Source of the DNA: an uncultured Planctomycetaceae bacterium
GTDB lineage: Bacteria; Planctomycetota; Phycisphaerae; SM23-33
DNA length: 64,000 nucleotides
Assembly (NCBI GenBank): GCA_964557575.1
Contig: CAZLBC010000012.1
Span: forward strand, 17,400 to 81,399
Reading direction: 5' to 3'
Under the pieces are notes generated by a model. It did no database searches and had not been told where the DNA came from. It saw only the letters and a list, made by a program, of their open reading frames with translations. A program made the position numbers and the translations under genes. The first letter of the stretch is position 1. The number at the start of each line of letters is the position of its first letter. Below are positions 22,274 through 51,360 of the stretch, in pieces.

Positions 22274-23302
22274 TCATACGCCCGCGGCGGACAGGGCAAC
22301 GAGCTTTCGGAGGACGGCCCCCGCAGCCCCGGAATCGATCGATTCGGCGGCCGCAGCCAGCCCGGCCTCCATTCCCGGTGCGTGACCCGCGACTACCAGC
22401 GCGGCGGCCGCATTCAGGAGGACGATATTCCTGCAGACCCCCCGTTCCCCGGCCATAACGCCACGGATGCGCGCCGCCGACTCCTCGGGGGAACGCACCG
22501 CGAGATCCGCCAGGGTCCCTTCCGCTATCCCGTAATCCGCGGGATTCAACGTCCACGTATCCACGGTACCGTCTTCGAGCCGGGCAATCGTCGTCGGCCC
22601 GGTCACCGATATCTCGTCCATGCCGTCGGCGCCGCACACCACCCACGCCCGCTCGGCACCGAGCCGGCACAGCACCTGCGCGAGTATCCCGGTCCACGCG
22701 GGGGAAAAAACCCCCATCAGAAAGTGCTTCGCCCCGGCCGGATTGGTCAGGGGCCCGAGGATGTTGAAAATAGTCCTGACCGGCAGCGCCTTCCGCACCC
22801 CCGCGACGTTTTTCATCGCCGGGTGGCACTGCCGCGCAAAGCAAAATCCCATGCCGGATTCCTCGATGCAGAGGGTGACCGTGGCGGCGGGTATCTCTAT
22901 GTTGACCCCGAGGGCCCGCAACACGTCGGCCGCCCCGCTCGACCGGGTATTCGTCACGTTGCCGTGCTTGGCAACTGTCGCGCCGGCGCCCGCGGCGACA
23001 AAACACGACGCGGTCGATACGTTGAACGTGCTGATGCCCGTCCCCCCCGTTCCCACGATATCGACAATCGGGCCCTCCCCGTCGAACACGATCCTCACGG
23101 CCGCGTCGCGCATGGCCCGCGCCGCGCCGGCTATCTCCGTGACCGCGTGTCCCTTTGCGGCAAGGGCCGCCAGCAGGGCGGCCATCCTGACCTCGCTCAG
23201 TTCGCCGCGCATCAGGCTGCCGAACGTCTCGAATGCCTCGTCTTCGGCAAGATCTTCTCCCGCAATAATCCTCTGAAGCAGTGTCCCATATTCAATGGCC
23301 AT
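22274..23302 (-). CDS. trpD: Anthranilate phosphoribosyltransferase
   Basis: The 342-aa product has GTGGTG, the KHGN motif and a full-length TrpD pattern. It stands alone with no other trp genes nearby. Confidence 0.9.
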   Translation of the reverse strand: MAIEYGTLLQRIIAGEDLAEDEAFETFGSLMRGELSEVRMAALLAALAAKGHAVTEIAGAARAMRDAAVRIVFDGEGPIVDIVGTGGTGISTFNVSTASCFVAAGAGATVAKHGNVTNTRSSGAADVLRALGVNIEIPAATVTLCIEESGMGFCFARQCHPAMKNVAGVRKALPVRTIFNILGPLTNPAGAKHFLMGVFSPAWTGILAQVLCRLGAERAWVVCGADGMDEISVTGPTTIARLEDGTVDTWTLNPADYGIAEGTLADLAVRSPEESAARIRGVMAGERGVCRNIVLLNAAAALVVAGHAPGMEAGLAAAAESIDSGAAGAVLRKLVALSAAGV

Positions 23303-23598
23303 GTACCACGCACTCCCTGTAAGCCGTTATGTCGGTCGGTAACGAACACGGGAAGCCGCTCCACCCGCATATCGGGCGTATTGTAAACAGCCCCTGATCG
23401 GCGGAAAAGGACAAATACGATTTTGTCGCAATATCACCCGTGACCGGTCGTTTTACCCTATCGAAAAGGATTGTAGGGCAATTCCCCTAATACTTGCGGT
23501 AAAATGGAAAAGCATTTGAGAAAAACGAAAAATTTTACTATTTCAGATGTCTTCGGACAGGACATGGGTATATAAATAAACAAGGAAGGAGATGTAAT

Positions 23599-23730
23599 AT
23601 GTATACAGTAAAGAAAAATCCTTCGCGTGTACCGAGTAGAGCAAAAGGCATGTCGGTGTTTGAGTTTATCTTGTCGATCCTGGTTATAGCAGTCGGGATC
23701 ACAACGGCAATCCGCTACGCCAGCATGTAA
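23599..23730 (+). CDS. 43-aa micro-protein with a prepilin-type cleavage motif (G then M-S-V-F-E with Glu at +5) and a single TM helix
   Basis: MYTVKKNPSRVPSRAKG|MSVFEFILSILVIAVGITTAIRYASM. AGGAAGGAG RBS lies 8 nt upstream, an intrinsic terminator lies downstream, and the gene sits in an AT-rich island directly upstream of a DUF1559 pseudopilin gene. It is not in the ORF track because it is below the size cutoff. Confidence 0.4.
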   Translation: MYTVKKNPSRVPSRAKGMSVFEFILSILVIAVGITTAIRYASM

Positions 23731-23873
23731 GGCAGCACTTGCGACAGCAAGAGCTTATATTTACTCGGTAATGTGTGGACGACACTAACAGCGCCTTTGT
23801 TTCAGAGGTTGTTTTCGTCTGTGTCATTCGTACAAACGCTCCCCGGCAACCTCTGATCAACGGCATACAGCAA

Positions 23874-23906
23874 TCCCCGGCCTTCCTGCGGGCCGGGGTA
23901 TTTTTT
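23874..23906 (+). terminator. Rho-independent terminator (8-bp GC stem CCCCGGCC/GGCCGGGG followed by a T7 tract)
   Basis: ccccggcc-ttcctgcg-ggccgggg-tattttttt is read directly, about 145 nt downstream of the micro-protein stop. Confidence 0.5.
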
Positions 23907-23975
23907 TGGAAGCGGAAAACCGGCGGGTCGCAGCGAGGCCGGGCAAAACATGTTGTGCGGGATCGAAAAAAACGC

Positions 23976-24004
23976 TTCAAATAAGGCGCTTAAAAACCTA
24001 TAAT
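23976..24004 (+). promoter_or_regulatory. Sigma70-like promoter (TTCAAA-17 nt-TATAAT) for the pseudopilin gene
   Basis: Consensus -10 and near-consensus -35 with 17-nt spacing, about 95 nt upstream of the ATG at 24100. Confidence 0.4.
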
Positions 24005-24099
24005 AAAAAAGGTTGGGAAACGTGAAAAAAATGCCCATTTCCCGCGGGAGAAAACCGCTGTACGCGGTCGCGCGAGAAGTCGTGAAAAGGAGTGCCGTC

Positions 24100-24924
24100 A
24101 TGAAAAAACGCGGGTTCACACTGGTCGAACTCATGGTCGTCATCGCGATCATCGCCCTGCTGCTGACGATGCTCATGCCCTCCCTTCACGACGCCATGAG
24201 CGGCGCACGGGACGCAATCTGCAAGTCGCAGCTCGGCGACTGGGGCAAGATCTGGTCGATGTACATTTCGGACAACGACGGGGATTTCAACCGGGGATGG
24301 GACGGACGATTCGGCGGCGAGGGTCAGCTCTGGATGACGCAGTTGCGGACATACTACCAGGACAACAAGGATCTGCTCTTGTGCCCGGAGGGTCAGGTTT
24401 CCATATTCGAAGCGGGCTTCACGCCCTTTTCGATGTGGGAACGAGCGGTGCCCTCCGGGGAGGGCGGACCGAAAATACCGGTCAAGAGCAGCTACACGAT
24501 CAACAATTGGACGAACGATATGACCGGCGACCGGGGGCATCGAAAGGAAGAGTGGTTCTGGAAGAGCCCGAAGGACACGCCCAAGCCCCACACCGTTCCC
24601 GTGTTCGCCGACGGCACCTGGAACGATGCCTGGCCGCTGCACAAAGACGTAGCACCGGAATACATCGACGGAGTCCCGCTGAATAATTTCGGCACACAAA
24701 ACGAAATGGGGCACTTCTGCATACCCCGCCACGGCGATTTCGAGGACGCGTGGGTCAACTGCCTCTTCATGAACTGGGGCGTCCGGCAGGTGCCCCTCAA
24801 GCAACTCTGGCAACTGAAGTGGCACCGCGATTTCAGTTTCGACCCCAGCGAAAACTACGGTATTGGCCGCCCAAACAGCGACTGGCCGAAGTGGATGCAG
24901 GAGCGGGAATGGGACCAGAAATAA
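24100..24924 (+). CDS. Prepilin-type N-terminal cleavage/methylation domain protein (type II secretion pseudopilin-like, DUF1559 family)
   Basis: MKKRGFTLVELMVVIAIIALL is the classic GFTLxE prepilin motif, with AAAGGAG RBS. The C-terminal DUF1559-like region is typical of PVC bacteria. The track's 24013 start is an upstream TTG. Confidence 0.8.
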   Translation: MKKRGFTLVELMVVIAIIALLLTMLMPSLHDAMSGARDAICKSQLGDWGKIWSMYISDNDGDFNRGWDGRFGGEGQLWMTQLRTYYQDNKDLLLCPEGQVSIFEAGFTPFSMWERAVPSGEGGPKIPVKSSYTINNWTNDMTGDRGHRKEEWFWKSPKDTPKPHTVPVFADGTWNDAWPLHKDVAPEYIDGVPLNNFGTQNEMGHFCIPRHGDFEDAWVNCLFMNWGVRQVPLKQLWQLKWHRDFSFDPSENYGIGRPNSDWPKWMQEREWDQK

Positions 24925-25520: not shown

Positions 25521-25661
25521 ATGGGCCAGAGAAGAGAACGGCTTGACCGCCGAAAGAAAAACCAGAAGAAAACACGCCTGAAAAACAGCGACCGGAAAAC
25601 GAAGGAACGCCGGCGGAAGGCGACCCGCGCCGCTGCCCGCGAACAGCGCATGTCGCAATAA
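25521..25661 (+). CDS. 46-aa extremely basic (Arg/Lys-rich) small protein, hypothetical
   Basis: MGQRRERLDRRKKNQKKTRLKNSDRKTKERRRKATRAAAREQRMSQ with AAAGGAAC RBS 5 nt upstream. It lies between the zinc-ribbon gene and the kinase gene. Low confidence that it is translated. Confidence 0.3.
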   Translation: MGQRRERLDRRKKNQKKTRLKNSDRKTKERRRKATRAAAREQRMSQ

Positions 25662-26907: not shown

Positions 26908-27255
26908 CTCGCAGCGCGGGGCGTTAGGGCATATCAGGGACGGCACATCGGATCAGTGCGCCATCACGGTGAGAATTGCCATAACCACCCACACGGCCAC
27001 CAGCGTAATTTCCCAAACAACCAGGCCGGCTTTTGAACTCGATATCTTCATGCCGAATCCTTTCAGCTCCTCAGTCGCATTCCATCAACCCAGAAAGATA
27101 TACAATTGTCCTTTTCGACGCACGACAAGAACGATGCCGCACTATATACTATCGGACAGTTACAGCCGCCCGGATTAACACGATATACGGGGAAAAACAG
27201 CAGAACCGCTTCTGTGTTCTGGATCGCTGTTACTGTATAATAACATGAAGTTTTC

Positions 27256-51210: not shown

Positions 51211-51360
51211 ATGATCATTTTGATGGAAGTACTGGTCGGGTCGGTAACGGCGGGAGTGATCACGTTGATCGTGATGGCCGTATCGCTGAATGATATCAAA
51301 AAAAGCTTCGCCGCTCTTCTTGAACAGGCCACGGAAGAGAAATCGGGCGACCGGAATTAA
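51211..51360 (+). CDS. 49-aa single-TM small protein, hypothetical
   Basis: MIILMEVLVGSVTAGVITLIVMAVSLNDIKKSFAALLEQATEEKSGDRN with GAGGAG RBS 8 nt upstream. The track ORF 51160 is a 5' over-extension. Confidence 0.3.
   Translation: MIILMEVLVGSVTAGVITLIVMAVSLNDIKKSFAALLEQATEEKSGDRN

What the first reader, a model, noticed from the sequence alone, without database searches (positions are those of the whole stretch)
23303..24099. Stand-alone 43-aa prepilin-motif micro-gene with its own RBS and intrinsic terminator upstream of a DUF1559 pseudopilin
Within an 800-bp AT-rich island an unannotated ORF (23599-23730) encodes MYTVKKNPSRVPSRAKG-MSVFEFILSILVIAVGI..., a positively charged leader ending in Gly. 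It is followed by a hydrophobic helix with Glu at +5, the prepilin-peptidase (PilD/GspO) recognition logic, but in a 43-aa peptide that is essentially only the N-terminal helix of a pilin. It has an AGGAAGGAG RBS and a strong terminator (23874-23906). It precedes a separate promoter for a GFTLVE-type pseudopilin. It could be a minimal pilin or pilin-like regulatory or priming peptide.
Basis: seen in the sequence. Interest (0 to 1): 0.55.

Follow-up and report, generated by a model that had tools for sequence, protein, structure and literature searches.

The report
Tiny prepilin-signal-like membrane peptide gene
A 43-codon gene with its own ribosome-binding site and terminator lies between trpD and a pseudopilin gene in an uncultured Phycisphaerae-like planctomycete; its product looks like a bare prepilin signal peptide, but it is known from only two sister genomes and matches no pilin family profile.

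Summary
The ORF at 23599-23730(+) has a strong SD 7 nt upstream and a 9-bp G+C-rich terminator with a T7 tail. The pseudopilin downstream has its own promoter.

The ORF is probably a real gene:
- Gene callers report it in NCBI and Logan records.
- A sister species (TrpD 93% identical) keeps it at 42 of 43 residues.
- It is the best-conserved stretch of the neighbourhood (96.2% nt identity). Four of its five substitutions are synonymous.
- The terminator stem carries a compensatory change.

It is an orphan. Searches of 5.8 billion and 1.84 billion proteins and DNA-pattern scans of three contig collections found nothing else. The nearest outgroup with the same trpD/pseudopilin arrangement lacks the ~590-bp cassette.

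The prepilin reading is partly supported. [quoted passage not shown] It fails every profile test (Pfam N_methyl, TIGR02532, Flp_Fap, a custom HMM). The window holds no pilus or secretion machinery.

A second micro-ORF (27051-26953, minus strand, 32 aa) has the same layout.

Best reading: a single-pass membrane micro-protein, possibly cut by prepilin peptidase (about 0.35). Rivals are an unprocessed small regulator, a type I toxin and a non-coding RNA.

The parts
23497..23581 (+). Conserved AT-rich tract upstream of the micro-ORF. It is the candidate promoter and 5' UTR. It holds TAAAAT at 23500-23505 and a small hairpin ATGTC...GACAT at about 23547-23565.
   Evidence: GC is 0.365-0.385. The tract is 89% identical to L002 and the last ~40 nt are nearly invariant. 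The best sigma-70 match is only 8/12, so the promoter is inferred, not shown.
23582..23591 (+). Shine-Dalgarno sequence AAGGAAGGAG. Its AAGGAG core ends 7 nt before the ATG.
   Evidence: Read from the sequence. It is invariant in L002. GAAGGA (23585-23590) is complementary to UCCUUC in codons 7-9 (23619-23624) and pairs with it in the MFE fold.
23599..23730 (+). Micro-ORF of 43 aa. The leader M1-G17 is at 23599-23649. A 21-residue hydrophobic tract with Glu at +5, plus RYASM, is at 23650-23727. The stop codon is at 23728-23730.
   Evidence: Gene calls exist in NCBI and Logan. The sister-species variant carries N7Y. Identity to L002 is 96.2% nt with 4 synonymous and 1 nonsynonymous substitution. 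Kyte-Doolittle maximum over 19 residues is 2.41.
23793..23864 (+). Long conserved hairpin in the 145-nt 3' UTR. Its core is the 10-bp perfect stem TCAGAGGTTG / CAACCTCTGA.
   Evidence: z = -2.97; repeat I6; stem invariant; four one-sided changes keep pairing. Its function is unknown.
23875..23908 (+). Intrinsic terminator of the micro-ORF transcript.
   Evidence: 9 pairs, 8 G-C, T7 tail. One search shows one compensatory pair, C-G to U-A, between the window and L002.
23976..24004 (+). The pseudopilin's own promoter, TTCAAA-N17-TATAAT.
   Evidence: 10/12. It is conserved in L002 and in outgroup L003, which has no micro-ORF.
24100..24924 (+). Pseudopilin-type gene (MKKRG|FTLVELMVVIAIIALL...), 274 aa.
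   Evidence: Pfam N_methyl 34.8 bits and TIGR02532. JGI names its homologs prepilin-type / H-X9-DG proteins.
22274..23302 (-). trpD (anthranilate phosphoribosyltransferase), the divergent left-hand neighbour.
   Evidence: Pfam families Glycos_trans_3N and Glycos_transf_3 in the gene calls. Homologs are named accordingly.
23538..23702 (-). Antisense 54-codon ORF with a GTG start and no SD. It is a rival reading frame and probably not a gene.
   Evidence: It is intact in L002 because its third codon positions coincide with those of the + ORF. It has no family match and no gene caller reports it.
23474..23489 (-). Small minus-strand hairpin followed by a T-rich run (weak terminator-like site). 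It could end an antisense transcript, or it may mean nothing.
   Evidence: By my reading of the alignment, L002 keeps the stem with a G-U pair while the loop differs.
26953..27051 (-). Second micro-ORF with the same layout, 32 aa: MKISSSKAG|LVVWEITLVAVWVVMAILTVMAH. It has a 9-aa leader ending in Gly, 21 hydrophobic residues with Glu at +5, then AH. The SD is AAAGGA.
   Evidence: A gene call exists in Logan only. No terminator or consensus promoter was found. Conservation could not be tested.

Best explanation
The feature is a real, separately transcribed small gene confined to one genus-level lineage of uncultured Phycisphaerae-like Planctomycetota.

Proposed mechanism:
1. The mRNA starts in the AT-rich tract upstream. 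It carries a strong SD, the 43-codon ORF and a structured 145-nt 3' UTR, and it ends at the intrinsic terminator. It is therefore insulated from the pseudopilin gene, which has its own promoter.
2. The product inserts into the cytoplasmic membrane as a single helix. The basic 17-residue N-terminus (five K/R) stays in the cytoplasm, and only about 5 residues lie on the far side.
3. Its whole sequence has the layout of a class III (prepilin) signal peptide. I take as most likely that the cell's prepilin peptidase cuts it after Gly17.
4. The remaining 26-residue Glu5-bearing helix is too short to build a filament. It would act inside the membrane instead, as a modulator or decoy of pseudopilin handling, or as a helix-helix ligand of a membrane sensor such as the nearby tail-anchored Ser/Thr kinase.

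Shown: the ORF, SD and terminator; conservation and its pattern; the orphan status; the rule-based motif match; the strongly hydrophobic segment. Inferred: transcription start, translation, topology, cleavage, and all of the function. My estimates: about 0.75 that it is a translated membrane micro-protein, and about 0.35 that it is also a prepilin-peptidase substrate.
For: Gene-like anatomy: an ATG with AAGGAG 7 nt upstream and a strong terminator. The exact product is called independently in NCBI and Logan assemblies.

Selection, window versus sister species L002 (TrpD 93% identical):
- The ORF is 96.2% identical in nucleotides. trpD is 93.1%, the pseudopilin 89.1% and the non-coding flanks 82.5-89%.
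- Five or fewer substitutions in 132 nt at the flanking rate has P = 9e-4.
- Four of the five substitutions are synonymous third-position changes (P = 0.013-0.023). All four lie in the hydrophobic part, which has no amino-acid change.
- GC3 of that part is 0.73, like host genes at 0.62-0.86.
- The terminator stem shows a compensatory C-G to U-A change.

Membrane helix: the Kyte-Doolittle mean is 2.41 over 19 residues.

Class III layout:
- The leader is 17 aa (allowed range 6-26), hydrophilic or neutral, and ends in Gly. Exactly 21 mostly hydrophobic residues follow, interrupted by Glu5 (definition in PMC4471445).
- The peptide passes the PilFind rule (PMC3244431): [GAS]-x4-[DE] plus 14 uncharged residues, within 35 aa of the N-terminus, with a single transmembrane segment.
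- The window has only three distinct SD-preceded, hydrophobic, intergenic small ORFs. Two of them have this layout.

A substrate-processing system must exist, because the canonical prepilin-type gene next door is conserved.

Precedent for a helix-only pilin fragment with a function: in Caulobacter, PilA truncated to the leader plus 17-25 mature residues is enough to signal through the kinase PleC (PMC7196804).
Against: - No profile recognises the peptide. Pfam N_methyl and Flp_Fap give nothing at E<=10. NCBIfam returns only a sub-threshold PilV N-terminus match (13.8 bits, cutoff 52.2).
- The custom HMM gives 0.1 bits, against 40.1 for P. aeruginosa PilA, and 28% of shuffles of the peptide's own hydrophobic part score as well.
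- The best PDB hit is a BetP transmembrane helix with a similar G-x4-E-F-I-L string, so such strings do occur in unrelated helices.
- Aromatic residues at +4 (Phe; Trp in micro-ORF 2) are unusual for pilins (my own knowledge).
- None of the ~47 genes in the window encodes a prepilin peptidase, secretion ATPase, platform protein or secretin.
- The family has two members, both near-identical. Nothing else was found among 5.8 billion or 1.84 billion proteins or by DNA scans.
- The outgroup L003 lacks the cassette, and other pseudopilin loci have no such ORF.
- The synonymous pattern does not fix the strand, because an antisense ORF shares the third codon positions.
- No consensus promoter was found.
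- There are no expression data.
Confidence: 0.35

Rival explanations
1. It is an unprocessed small membrane protein. The 43-mer stays intact as a single-pass N-in helix and tunes a partner membrane protein (transporter, kinase or protease), as MgrB, AcrZ, MgtS and similar proteins do. On this reading the Gly-x4-Glu string is a helix-packing feature and only looks like a prepilin site.
For: All the evidence for a real, conserved, membrane-inserted micro-protein applies here too. Every pilin profile fails. The best structural-database match is an ordinary transporter helix with the same string. Regulators of this size are the commonest characterised class of bacterial small membrane proteins (review PMC12648545, listed; not read in detail).
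Against: The match to the class III definition is complete, including the 21-residue tract length, Lys at -2 and Ser at +2. A second intergenic micro-ORF shows the same layout. My rough estimate is that 2% or fewer of small transmembrane proteins would match by chance. In a cell full of prepilin-type substrates, a helix with Gly at the cytoplasmic boundary would be exposed to the peptidase anyway.
Confidence: 0.25
2. It is the toxin of a type I toxin-antitoxin-like module. A small hydrophobic peptide damages the membrane when made, and an antisense or structured RNA holds its translation in check.
For: - The peptide is under 60 aa and has one transmembrane helix.
- It is a lineage-restricted cassette in an intergenic spacer that a relative lacks.
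- The 3' UTR is long and structured.
- A 6-nt anti-SD inside codons 7-9 pairs with the SD in the MFE fold.
- A weak hairpin plus T-run on the minus strand at 23489-23474 could end an antisense RNA.
- The general features of type I toxins come from PMC8309996 (listed).
Against: - No minus-strand promoter of 8/12 or better lies anywhere in 23560-23990.
- The main terminator is not bidirectional (my reading).
- The window and the fetched loci hold only a single copy.
- The SD is strong and the apparent 5' leader is short, which suits an expressed gene better than a silenced toxin.
- The charge sits at the N-terminus, whereas many type I toxins carry it at the C-terminus (my own knowledge).
- No toxin family matches.
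Confidence: 0.12
3. The transcript is a non-coding or regulatory RNA, and the ORF is incidental. Conservation would then reflect RNA structure or protein-binding sites.
For: - The whole unit folds better than shuffles (z = -2.7 and -3.0).
- Stems are conserved while loops vary.
- The leader-coding part has no synonymous change at all, which could reflect constraint at the RNA level.
- Only two sequences are available, so the coding signal is statistically thin.
- The ORF is an orphan.
Against: - No Rfam family matches at gathering score, and only noise appears at E<=10.
- The ATG with a near-perfect SD at ideal spacing is invariant.
- The substitutions are 4 synonymous to 1 nonsynonymous, with no change in the 26 hydrophobic residues.
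- GC3 in that part is host-like.
- The product is a clean positive-inside transmembrane peptide rather than a random translation.
Confidence: 0.18
4. It is a decayed remnant: the N-terminal stump of a former pilin or pseudopilin gene cut short by a nonsense or frameshift mutation.
For: It sits next to a pseudopilin gene. In other Phycisphaerae, homologs of that gene occur in tandem arrays of 2-3. The ORF stops right after the hydrophobic helix.
Against: The peptide scores no better against the local, highly stereotyped GFTL[IV]ELLVVIAIIALL consensus than shuffles of its own hydrophobic part do, so it cannot be a recent stump. It keeps its own SD and a dedicated terminator with a compensatory change. 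It is more conserved than the intact genes around it.
Confidence: 0.04
5. The real gene is the antisense 54-codon ORF (23702-23538, minus strand).
For: It is intact in both species, with 4 synonymous changes and 2 amino-acid changes. A hairpin with a T-rich tail lies about 50 nt past its stop.
Against: - It has a GTG start without an SD (my reading).
- No promoter was found.
- No gene caller reports it.
- Its exclusive part (23538-23598) evolves at 8% and includes a radical Arg-to-Glu change.
- Its apparent conservation follows automatically from sharing third codon positions with the + ORF.
- It has no family match.
Confidence: 0.03

Closest known systems
Class III (prepilin) signal peptides of type IV pilins and pseudopilins, as defined in PMC4471445 and by the PilFind rule in PMC3244431
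   Same: It has a hydrophilic, basic leader of 17 aa (allowed 6-26) that ends in Gly. Exactly 21 mostly hydrophobic residues follow, interrupted by Glu at +5. There is a single transmembrane segment at the N-terminus. Met at +1 and the longer leader recall type IVb pilins.
   Different: Only 5 residues follow the signal, so there is no pilin body. No profile of the family recognises it. It has Phe at +4. No machinery genes lie nearby. Processing is untested.
Flp/Fap (type IVc, Tad) pilins, the shortest known pilins (Caulobacter PilA has a 59-aa precursor, PMC7196804; pilins 'as short as 44 residues' per PMC4471445)
   Same: The precursor is very small. The leader is long relative to the whole. 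It has G-x4-E followed by an aromatic residue (EF here, EY in Flp). The gene can lie away from the machinery genes.
   Different: The mature part would be 26 aa, against roughly 40-50 in Flp pilins, and it lacks their C-terminal amphipathic half. Pfam Flp_Fap gives no hit at E<=10. No tad genes are in the window.
CIP, the 17-residue N-terminal helix of mature Caulobacter PilA, which signals to the kinase PleC (PMC7196804)
   Same: It is a leader plus a bare pilin transmembrane helix that acts inside the membrane rather than in a filament. This is a functional precedent for what a 26-residue Glu5 helix could do. A membrane-anchored Ser/Thr kinase lies 2 kb downstream here.
   Different: CIP is an experimentally truncated piece of a full pilin, not a natural stand-alone gene. 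There is no sequence similarity, and no interaction has been tested here.
Small single-pass membrane regulators (MgrB, AcrZ, MgtS and others; review PMC12648545)
   Same: It is under 50 aa with one helix and a positive-inside topology. It is its own small transcription unit and is lineage-restricted.
   Different: Of about 17 such proteins whose sequences I recalled from memory, none has a Gly-x4-Glu prepilin-type layout. No partner is known here.
Type I toxins (Hok, TisB, Ldr, Fst and others; review PMC8309996)
   Same: It is a small hydrophobic peptide gene in an intergenic spacer, with a structured mRNA and a patchy phylogenetic distribution.
   Different: No antisense RNA gene could be identified. 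The SD is strong and accessible. There is a single copy. The charge cluster is N-terminal.

Membership tests
Class III signal peptide (type IV prepilin-like) | Hydrophilic or neutral leader of 6-26 aa ending in a conserved Gly | tested here: met
   The leader MYTVKKNPSRVPSRAKG is 17 aa, carries 5 K/R and ends in Gly17. The definition comes from PMC4471445.
Class III signal peptide (type IV prepilin-like) | A tract of about 21 predominantly hydrophobic residues after the Gly, interrupted by Glu at +5 | tested here: met
   MSVFEFILSILVIAVGITTAI is 21 residues with Glu at +5, followed by Arg. It passes the PilFind rule of 14 uncharged residues after [GAS]-x4-[DE], within 35 aa of the N-terminus.
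Class III signal peptide (type IV prepilin-like) | Cleavage after Gly-1 by a dedicated prepilin peptidase (with or without N-methylation) | not testable with these tools
   This needs biochemistry or peptidomics. The window encodes no peptidase A24 gene. That one exists elsewhere in the genome is inferred from the conserved canonical prepilin-type neighbour.
Class III signal peptide (type IV prepilin-like) | Co-occurrence with type IV filament machinery (ATPase, platform protein, peptidase) | tested here: inconclusive
   None was found among the ~47 genes of the 64-kb window. Pilin genes are often unlinked from the machinery, and the rest of the genome was not available.
Pfam N_methyl (PF07963) / TIGR02532, the type IVa and T2SS pilin N-terminus | Profile match above the curated cutoff | tested here: not met
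   Pfam gives no hit at E<=10. NCBIfam gives only PilV at 13.8 bits against a cutoff of 52.2. The custom HMM of 86 planctomycete N-termini gives 0.1 bits against 40.1 for PAK PilA, no better than shuffles. That HMM also scores true type IVb/c pilins at only 2-7 bits (control sequences recalled from memory). It therefore excludes only this subfamily.
Flp/Fap pilins (PF04964) | Profile match; G-x4-EY motif; mature length of about 40-60 aa with a C-terminal half beyond the helix | tested here: not met
   No Pfam hit at E<=10. The motif is G-x4-EF. The mature part would be 26 aa, with 5 residues after the helix.
Type IV pilin or pseudopilin (filament subunit) | A structured C-terminal part beyond the N-terminal half of helix alpha-1 that forms the filament surface | tested here: not met
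   The ORF ends 5 residues after the hydrophobic tract. The frames downstream show no continuation, and a dedicated terminator follows.
Type I toxin-antitoxin | Small hydrophobic membrane peptide of under 60 aa | tested here: met
   It is 43 aa with one helix (Kyte-Doolittle 2.41).
Type I toxin-antitoxin | A cis- or trans-encoded antisense RNA antitoxin overlapping the toxin mRNA | tested here: inconclusive
   No minus-strand sigma-70-like promoter of 8/12 or better lies in 23560-23990. There is only a weak minus-strand hairpin with a T-run at 23489-23474. Planctomycete promoters may differ, and no RNA-seq is available.
Type I toxin-antitoxin | Toxicity on overexpression | not testable with these tools
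   This needs an experiment.
Known RNA families (Rfam 15) | Covariance-model match at gathering score | tested here: not met
   There are 0 matches in the window at gathering score. In 23250-24150 there are only sub-threshold chance hits at E>=0.088.

The most novel reading that the evidence does not exclude
This lineage encodes natural stand-alone class III signal peptides: genes whose entire product is a prepilin leader plus the 21-residue Glu5 helix. There are at least two in 3.5 kb, and they flank a pseudopilin / zinc-ribbon membrane protein / Ser/Thr-kinase cluster. After cleavage by prepilin peptidase, the free N-terminal pilin helices would act as intramembrane signals or competitive modulators. 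Possible targets are the peptidase, the assembly platform or a membrane kinase. That would be a genetically encoded counterpart of the experimentally derived Caulobacter CIP peptide, and a kind of type IV filament component not described before.
Probability: 0.25. Interest if true: 0.75.

Novelty: new variant of a known kind. Interest (0 to 1): 0.48.

Why it matters
PVC bacteria carry very large numbers of prepilin-type proteins whose roles are mostly unknown. Pilin transmembrane helices are known to signal to membrane kinases: PilA to PleC in Caulobacter (read here), and PilA to PilS in Pseudomonas (not read here).

A natural gene that makes only that helix would show the pilin N-terminus can be used as a free-standing regulatory module. 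It would give a simple handle, a 26-residue peptide, for probing prepilin peptidase specificity and pseudopilin handling in Planctomycetes.

If the motif is only a look-alike, the finding is an ordinary orphan small membrane protein. Many genomes hold such genes, and their annotation is still uneven.

Tried and rejected
- **Known RNA element.** Rfam gave nothing at gathering score and only noise at E<=10. The window has no tRNA or tmRNA.
- **Homologs of the peptide.** The word-indexed search of 5.8 billion proteins and the full HMMER scan of 1.84 billion representatives found only the sister-species variant. Degenerate-pattern scans of genome, metagenome and viral contigs found nothing.
- **Mobile or phage origin.** blastn of the cassette against plasmid and phage collections gave no match. 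PHROGs gave only noise. I found no flanking terminal repeats or target duplications that convinced me.
- **Synteny route.** TrpD relatives at 59-66% identity were fetched. Only L003 keeps the pseudopilin next to trpD, and its spacer is about 207 nt with no ORF. A TrpD scan of GTDB genomes found no close relative.
- **Micro-ORFs next to pseudopilin homologs elsewhere.** There are none. Those genes follow an ECF sigma factor and a 177-180-aa gene.
- **Attenuator or leader-peptide control of the pseudopilin.** Rejected. The stop codon is 145 nt from the terminator, and the pseudopilin has its own promoter, which is conserved in an outgroup without the cassette.
- **Duplication of the pseudopilin N-terminus.** Rejected by the HMM and shuffle test.
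- **Paralogous copies.** The window and the fetched loci hold no other copy. Micro-ORF 1 and micro-ORF 2 are not significantly similar in sequence (15.8 bits).
- **Conservation of micro-ORF 2.** Not testable. The sister-species contig ends before that region, and its cluster is a singleton.
- **Structure prediction.** Not run. A 43-residue single helix would not discriminate between the hypotheses.
Full report
**1. What is in the sequence**

It runs from 23599 to 23730 on the plus strand and encodes MYTVKKNPSRVPSRAKGMSVFEFILSILVIAVGITTAIRYASM.

- The SD is AAGGAAGGAG at 23582-23591. Its AAGGAG core ends 7 nt before the ATG.
- A terminator lies 145 nt past the stop codon. Its stem (23875-23898) has 9 pairs, 8 of them G-C, and TATTTTTTTG follows.
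- A TTCAAA-N17-TATAAT promoter (10/12) at 23976-24004 precedes the prepilin-type gene.
- GC falls to 0.365-0.385 in 23400-23700, against 0.60-0.70 in the flanking genes. The truly AT-rich part is therefore about 300 bp, not 800 bp.
- Rfam finds nothing, and the window has no tRNA.

Three details in the finding need correcting.
- The exact 43-aa product is already on record from NCBI and Logan gene calls, so the ORF is not uncalled.
- The downstream protein matches Pfam N_methyl only, not DUF1559/PF07596. JGI names its homologs 'prepilin-type ... H-X9-DG protein'.
- No sigma-70 consensus promoter of 9/12 or better lies upstream of the micro-ORF.

**2. Is it a gene?**

TrpD homolog names place the organism among uncultured Phycisphaerae-like Planctomycetota. 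Its lineage is thinly sampled. One sister species is available (L002, from SRR28093593, TrpD 93% identical). The next relative has a TrpD only 66% identical.

In L002 the peptide is 42/43 identical, with an N7Y change. Nucleotide identity between the window and L002, by segment:

| Segment | Identity |
|---|---|
| Micro-ORF | 96.2% |
| trpD | 93.1% |
| Pseudopilin | 89.1% |
| Other coding neighbours | about 85-90% |
| Non-coding stretches of the spacer | 82.5-89% |

- Five or fewer substitutions in 132 nt at the flanking rate of 12% has P = 9e-4.
- Four of the five substitutions are synonymous third-position changes (P = 0.013-0.023). All four lie in the hydrophobic part, which has no amino-acid change.
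- GC3 in that part is 0.73, within the host-gene range of 0.62-0.86.
- The terminator stem carries a compensatory C-G to U-A change. A long 3'-UTR hairpin (23793-23864) is also preserved.

One caveat applies. A 54-codon antisense ORF (23702-23538) is also intact in L002, because its third codon positions coincide with those of the plus-strand ORF. The synonymous pattern alone therefore does not fix the strand. The antisense ORF has a GTG start and no SD, no gene caller reports it, and it shows a radical Arg-to-Glu change in the part it does not share. I discount it. Overall I put the chance that the plus-strand ORF is translated at about 0.75.

**3. Distribution**

- The peptide is an orphan. 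Only the sister variant turned up among 5.8 billion clustered proteins and among 1.84 billion representatives scanned by HMMER without a word index.
- Degenerate DNA-pattern scans of genome, metagenome and viral contigs found nothing.
- The cassette matches no plasmid or phage record.
- In the nearest outgroup that keeps trpD next to the orthologous pseudopilin (L003), the spacer is about 207 nt. It has no ORF and no terminator, yet the TTCAAA-N17-TATAAT promoter of the pseudopilin is conserved.
- The unit is therefore a ~590-bp lineage-specific addition (or a loss in L003), and the pseudopilin does not need it for expression.
- More distant pseudopilin homologs sit behind an ECF sigma factor and a 177-180-aa gene, often in tandem arrays. 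None has a micro-ORF.

**4. Is it prepilin-like?**

By rule, yes. [quoted passage not shown] Here the leader is 17 aa with five K/R and ends in Gly17. Exactly 21 mostly hydrophobic residues follow (MSVFEFILSILVIAVGITTAI) with Glu at +5, and then RYASM and the stop. The peptide also satisfies every PilFind criterion (PMC3244431). A strict regex hits only this ORF and the true pseudopilin in the six-frame translation of the window.

By profile, no.
- Pfam N_methyl and Flp_Fap give nothing at E<=10.
- NCBIfam gives only a sub-threshold PilV N-terminus match.
- An HMM I built from 86 distinct planctomycete prepilin N-termini scores the peptide 0.1 bits, against 40.1 for P. aeruginosa PilA. In 28% of cases a shuffle of the peptide's own hydrophobic part scores at least as well.
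It therefore excludes membership of the type IVa/T2SS N_methyl family, not class III status in general.
- A PDB search returns a BetP transporter helix (SRGRSIREFILGVLLV) as the best, non-significant hit and no pilin. Such strings do occur in ordinary helices.
- The window encodes no prepilin peptidase, ATPase, platform protein or secretin.

**5. An unplanned replicate**

I screened the window's 5.6 kb of intergenic DNA for SD-preceded small ORFs with a hydrophobic segment and found only three distinct ones. Two have the class III layout: the reported ORF and a second one on the minus strand at 27051-26953. The second encodes MKISSSKAG|LVVWEITLVAVWVVMAILTVMAH, that is, a 9-aa leader ending in Gly, 21 hydrophobic residues with Glu at +5, then two more residues.

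- The two micro-ORFs flank the cluster pseudopilin / 140-aa zinc-ribbon membrane protein / 46-aa basic protein / Ser/Thr kinase.
- They are not significantly similar in sequence.
- The second has no detectable terminator or promoter and is called only in the Logan assembly.
- Its conservation could not be checked, because the sister contig ends before it.
- My rough estimate is that 0.35-2% of small N-in helices would match the layout by chance. This independent second case is therefore suggestive (about P = 0.01-0.04) but not proof.

**6. Mechanism**

The best-supported account is a separately transcribed small gene whose product inserts as a single N-in helix in the cytoplasmic membrane. I commit to prepilin-peptidase cleavage after Gly17 as the single most likely fate (about 0.35 overall).

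The resulting 26-residue Glu5 helix could not form a filament surface. It would act within the membrane. The closest functional precedent comes from Caulobacter, where PilA truncated to its leader plus 17-25 mature residues still signals to the kinase PleC (PMC7196804).

Rivals:
- an unprocessed MgrB/AcrZ-type regulator (0.25);
- a non-coding RNA with an incidental ORF (0.18);
- a type I toxin (0.12), for which no antisense promoter was found and the window holds a single copy;
- a decayed pilin stump (0.04);
- the antisense ORF (0.03).

**7. Verdict**

It is an orphan micro-gene with good signs of being real. Its product is, by rule but not by homology, a bare prepilin signal peptide. It is moderately interesting, and a DNA-level census plus a simple cleavage assay would settle it.

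Noticed in passing
window 26953-27051 (minus strand): A second micro-ORF of 32 aa, MKISSSKAGLVVWEITLVAVWVVMAILTVMAH, has the same bare class III layout: a 9-aa leader ending in Gly, 21 hydrophobic residues with Glu at +5, then 2 residues. Its SD is AAAGGA. It lies in the 348-nt spacer between the Ser/Thr kinase gene and the 27256 gene. It is called in the Logan assembly only.
   Followed up: partly
window 25521-25661 (+): A 46-aa, extremely basic ORF (MGQRRERLDRRKKNQKKTRLKNSDRKTKERRRKATRAAAREQRMSQ) has an SD and a conserved TATAAT upstream. It is called as a gene in the sister species and is 39/46 identical there, with several synonymous changes. It is probably a real small protein of unknown role, lying between the zinc-ribbon gene and the kinase gene.
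   Followed up: partly
window 51211-51360 (+): A third SD-preceded hydrophobic small ORF of 49 aa, MIILMEVLVGSVTAGVITLIVMAVSLNDIKKSFAALLEQATEEKSGDRN. It lies on the plus strand between two minus-strand genes (a PPIase-domain gene and mfd). It has no leader, but Glu is the 6th residue of an N-terminal helix.
   Followed up: no
window 23538-23702 (minus strand): An antisense 54-codon ORF stays intact in the sister species only because its third codon positions coincide with those of the plus-strand micro-ORF. With overlapping frames, a synonymous-looking substitution pattern does not identify the coding strand.
   Followed up: yes
L003 300-508, compared with window 23940-24100: The divergent trpD/pseudopilin arrangement and the pseudopilin's TTCAAA-N17-TATAAT promoter are conserved in a relative whose TrpD is only 66% identical. 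Its spacer is about 207 nt, against 797 nt here.
   Followed up: yes
L010-L017 (pseudopilin homologs, 43-51% identical): In other Phycisphaerae/Sedimentisphaerales contigs this pseudopilin family sits directly downstream of an ECF sigma factor gene and a 177-180-aa gene of unknown function (a possible anti-sigma factor). It often forms tandem arrays of 2-3 N_methyl genes. This suggests ECF-controlled expression of these pseudopilins.
   Followed up: no
window 23585-23590 and 23619-23624: The SD core GAAGGA is exactly complementary to UCCUUC in codons 7-9 of the micro-ORF, and the two pair in the MFE fold. Both are invariant in L002. This may be a translational brake or may be chance (about 3% for a 6-mer in 130 nt).
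   Followed up: no
window 24100-24924: The pseudopilin lacks a Pfam DUF1559 match. Where its H-X9-DG-type relatives have ...F-x-DG-x-V, it reads ...CLFMNWGV (my reading of the translation). It looks like a divergent branch of that family.
   Followed up: no
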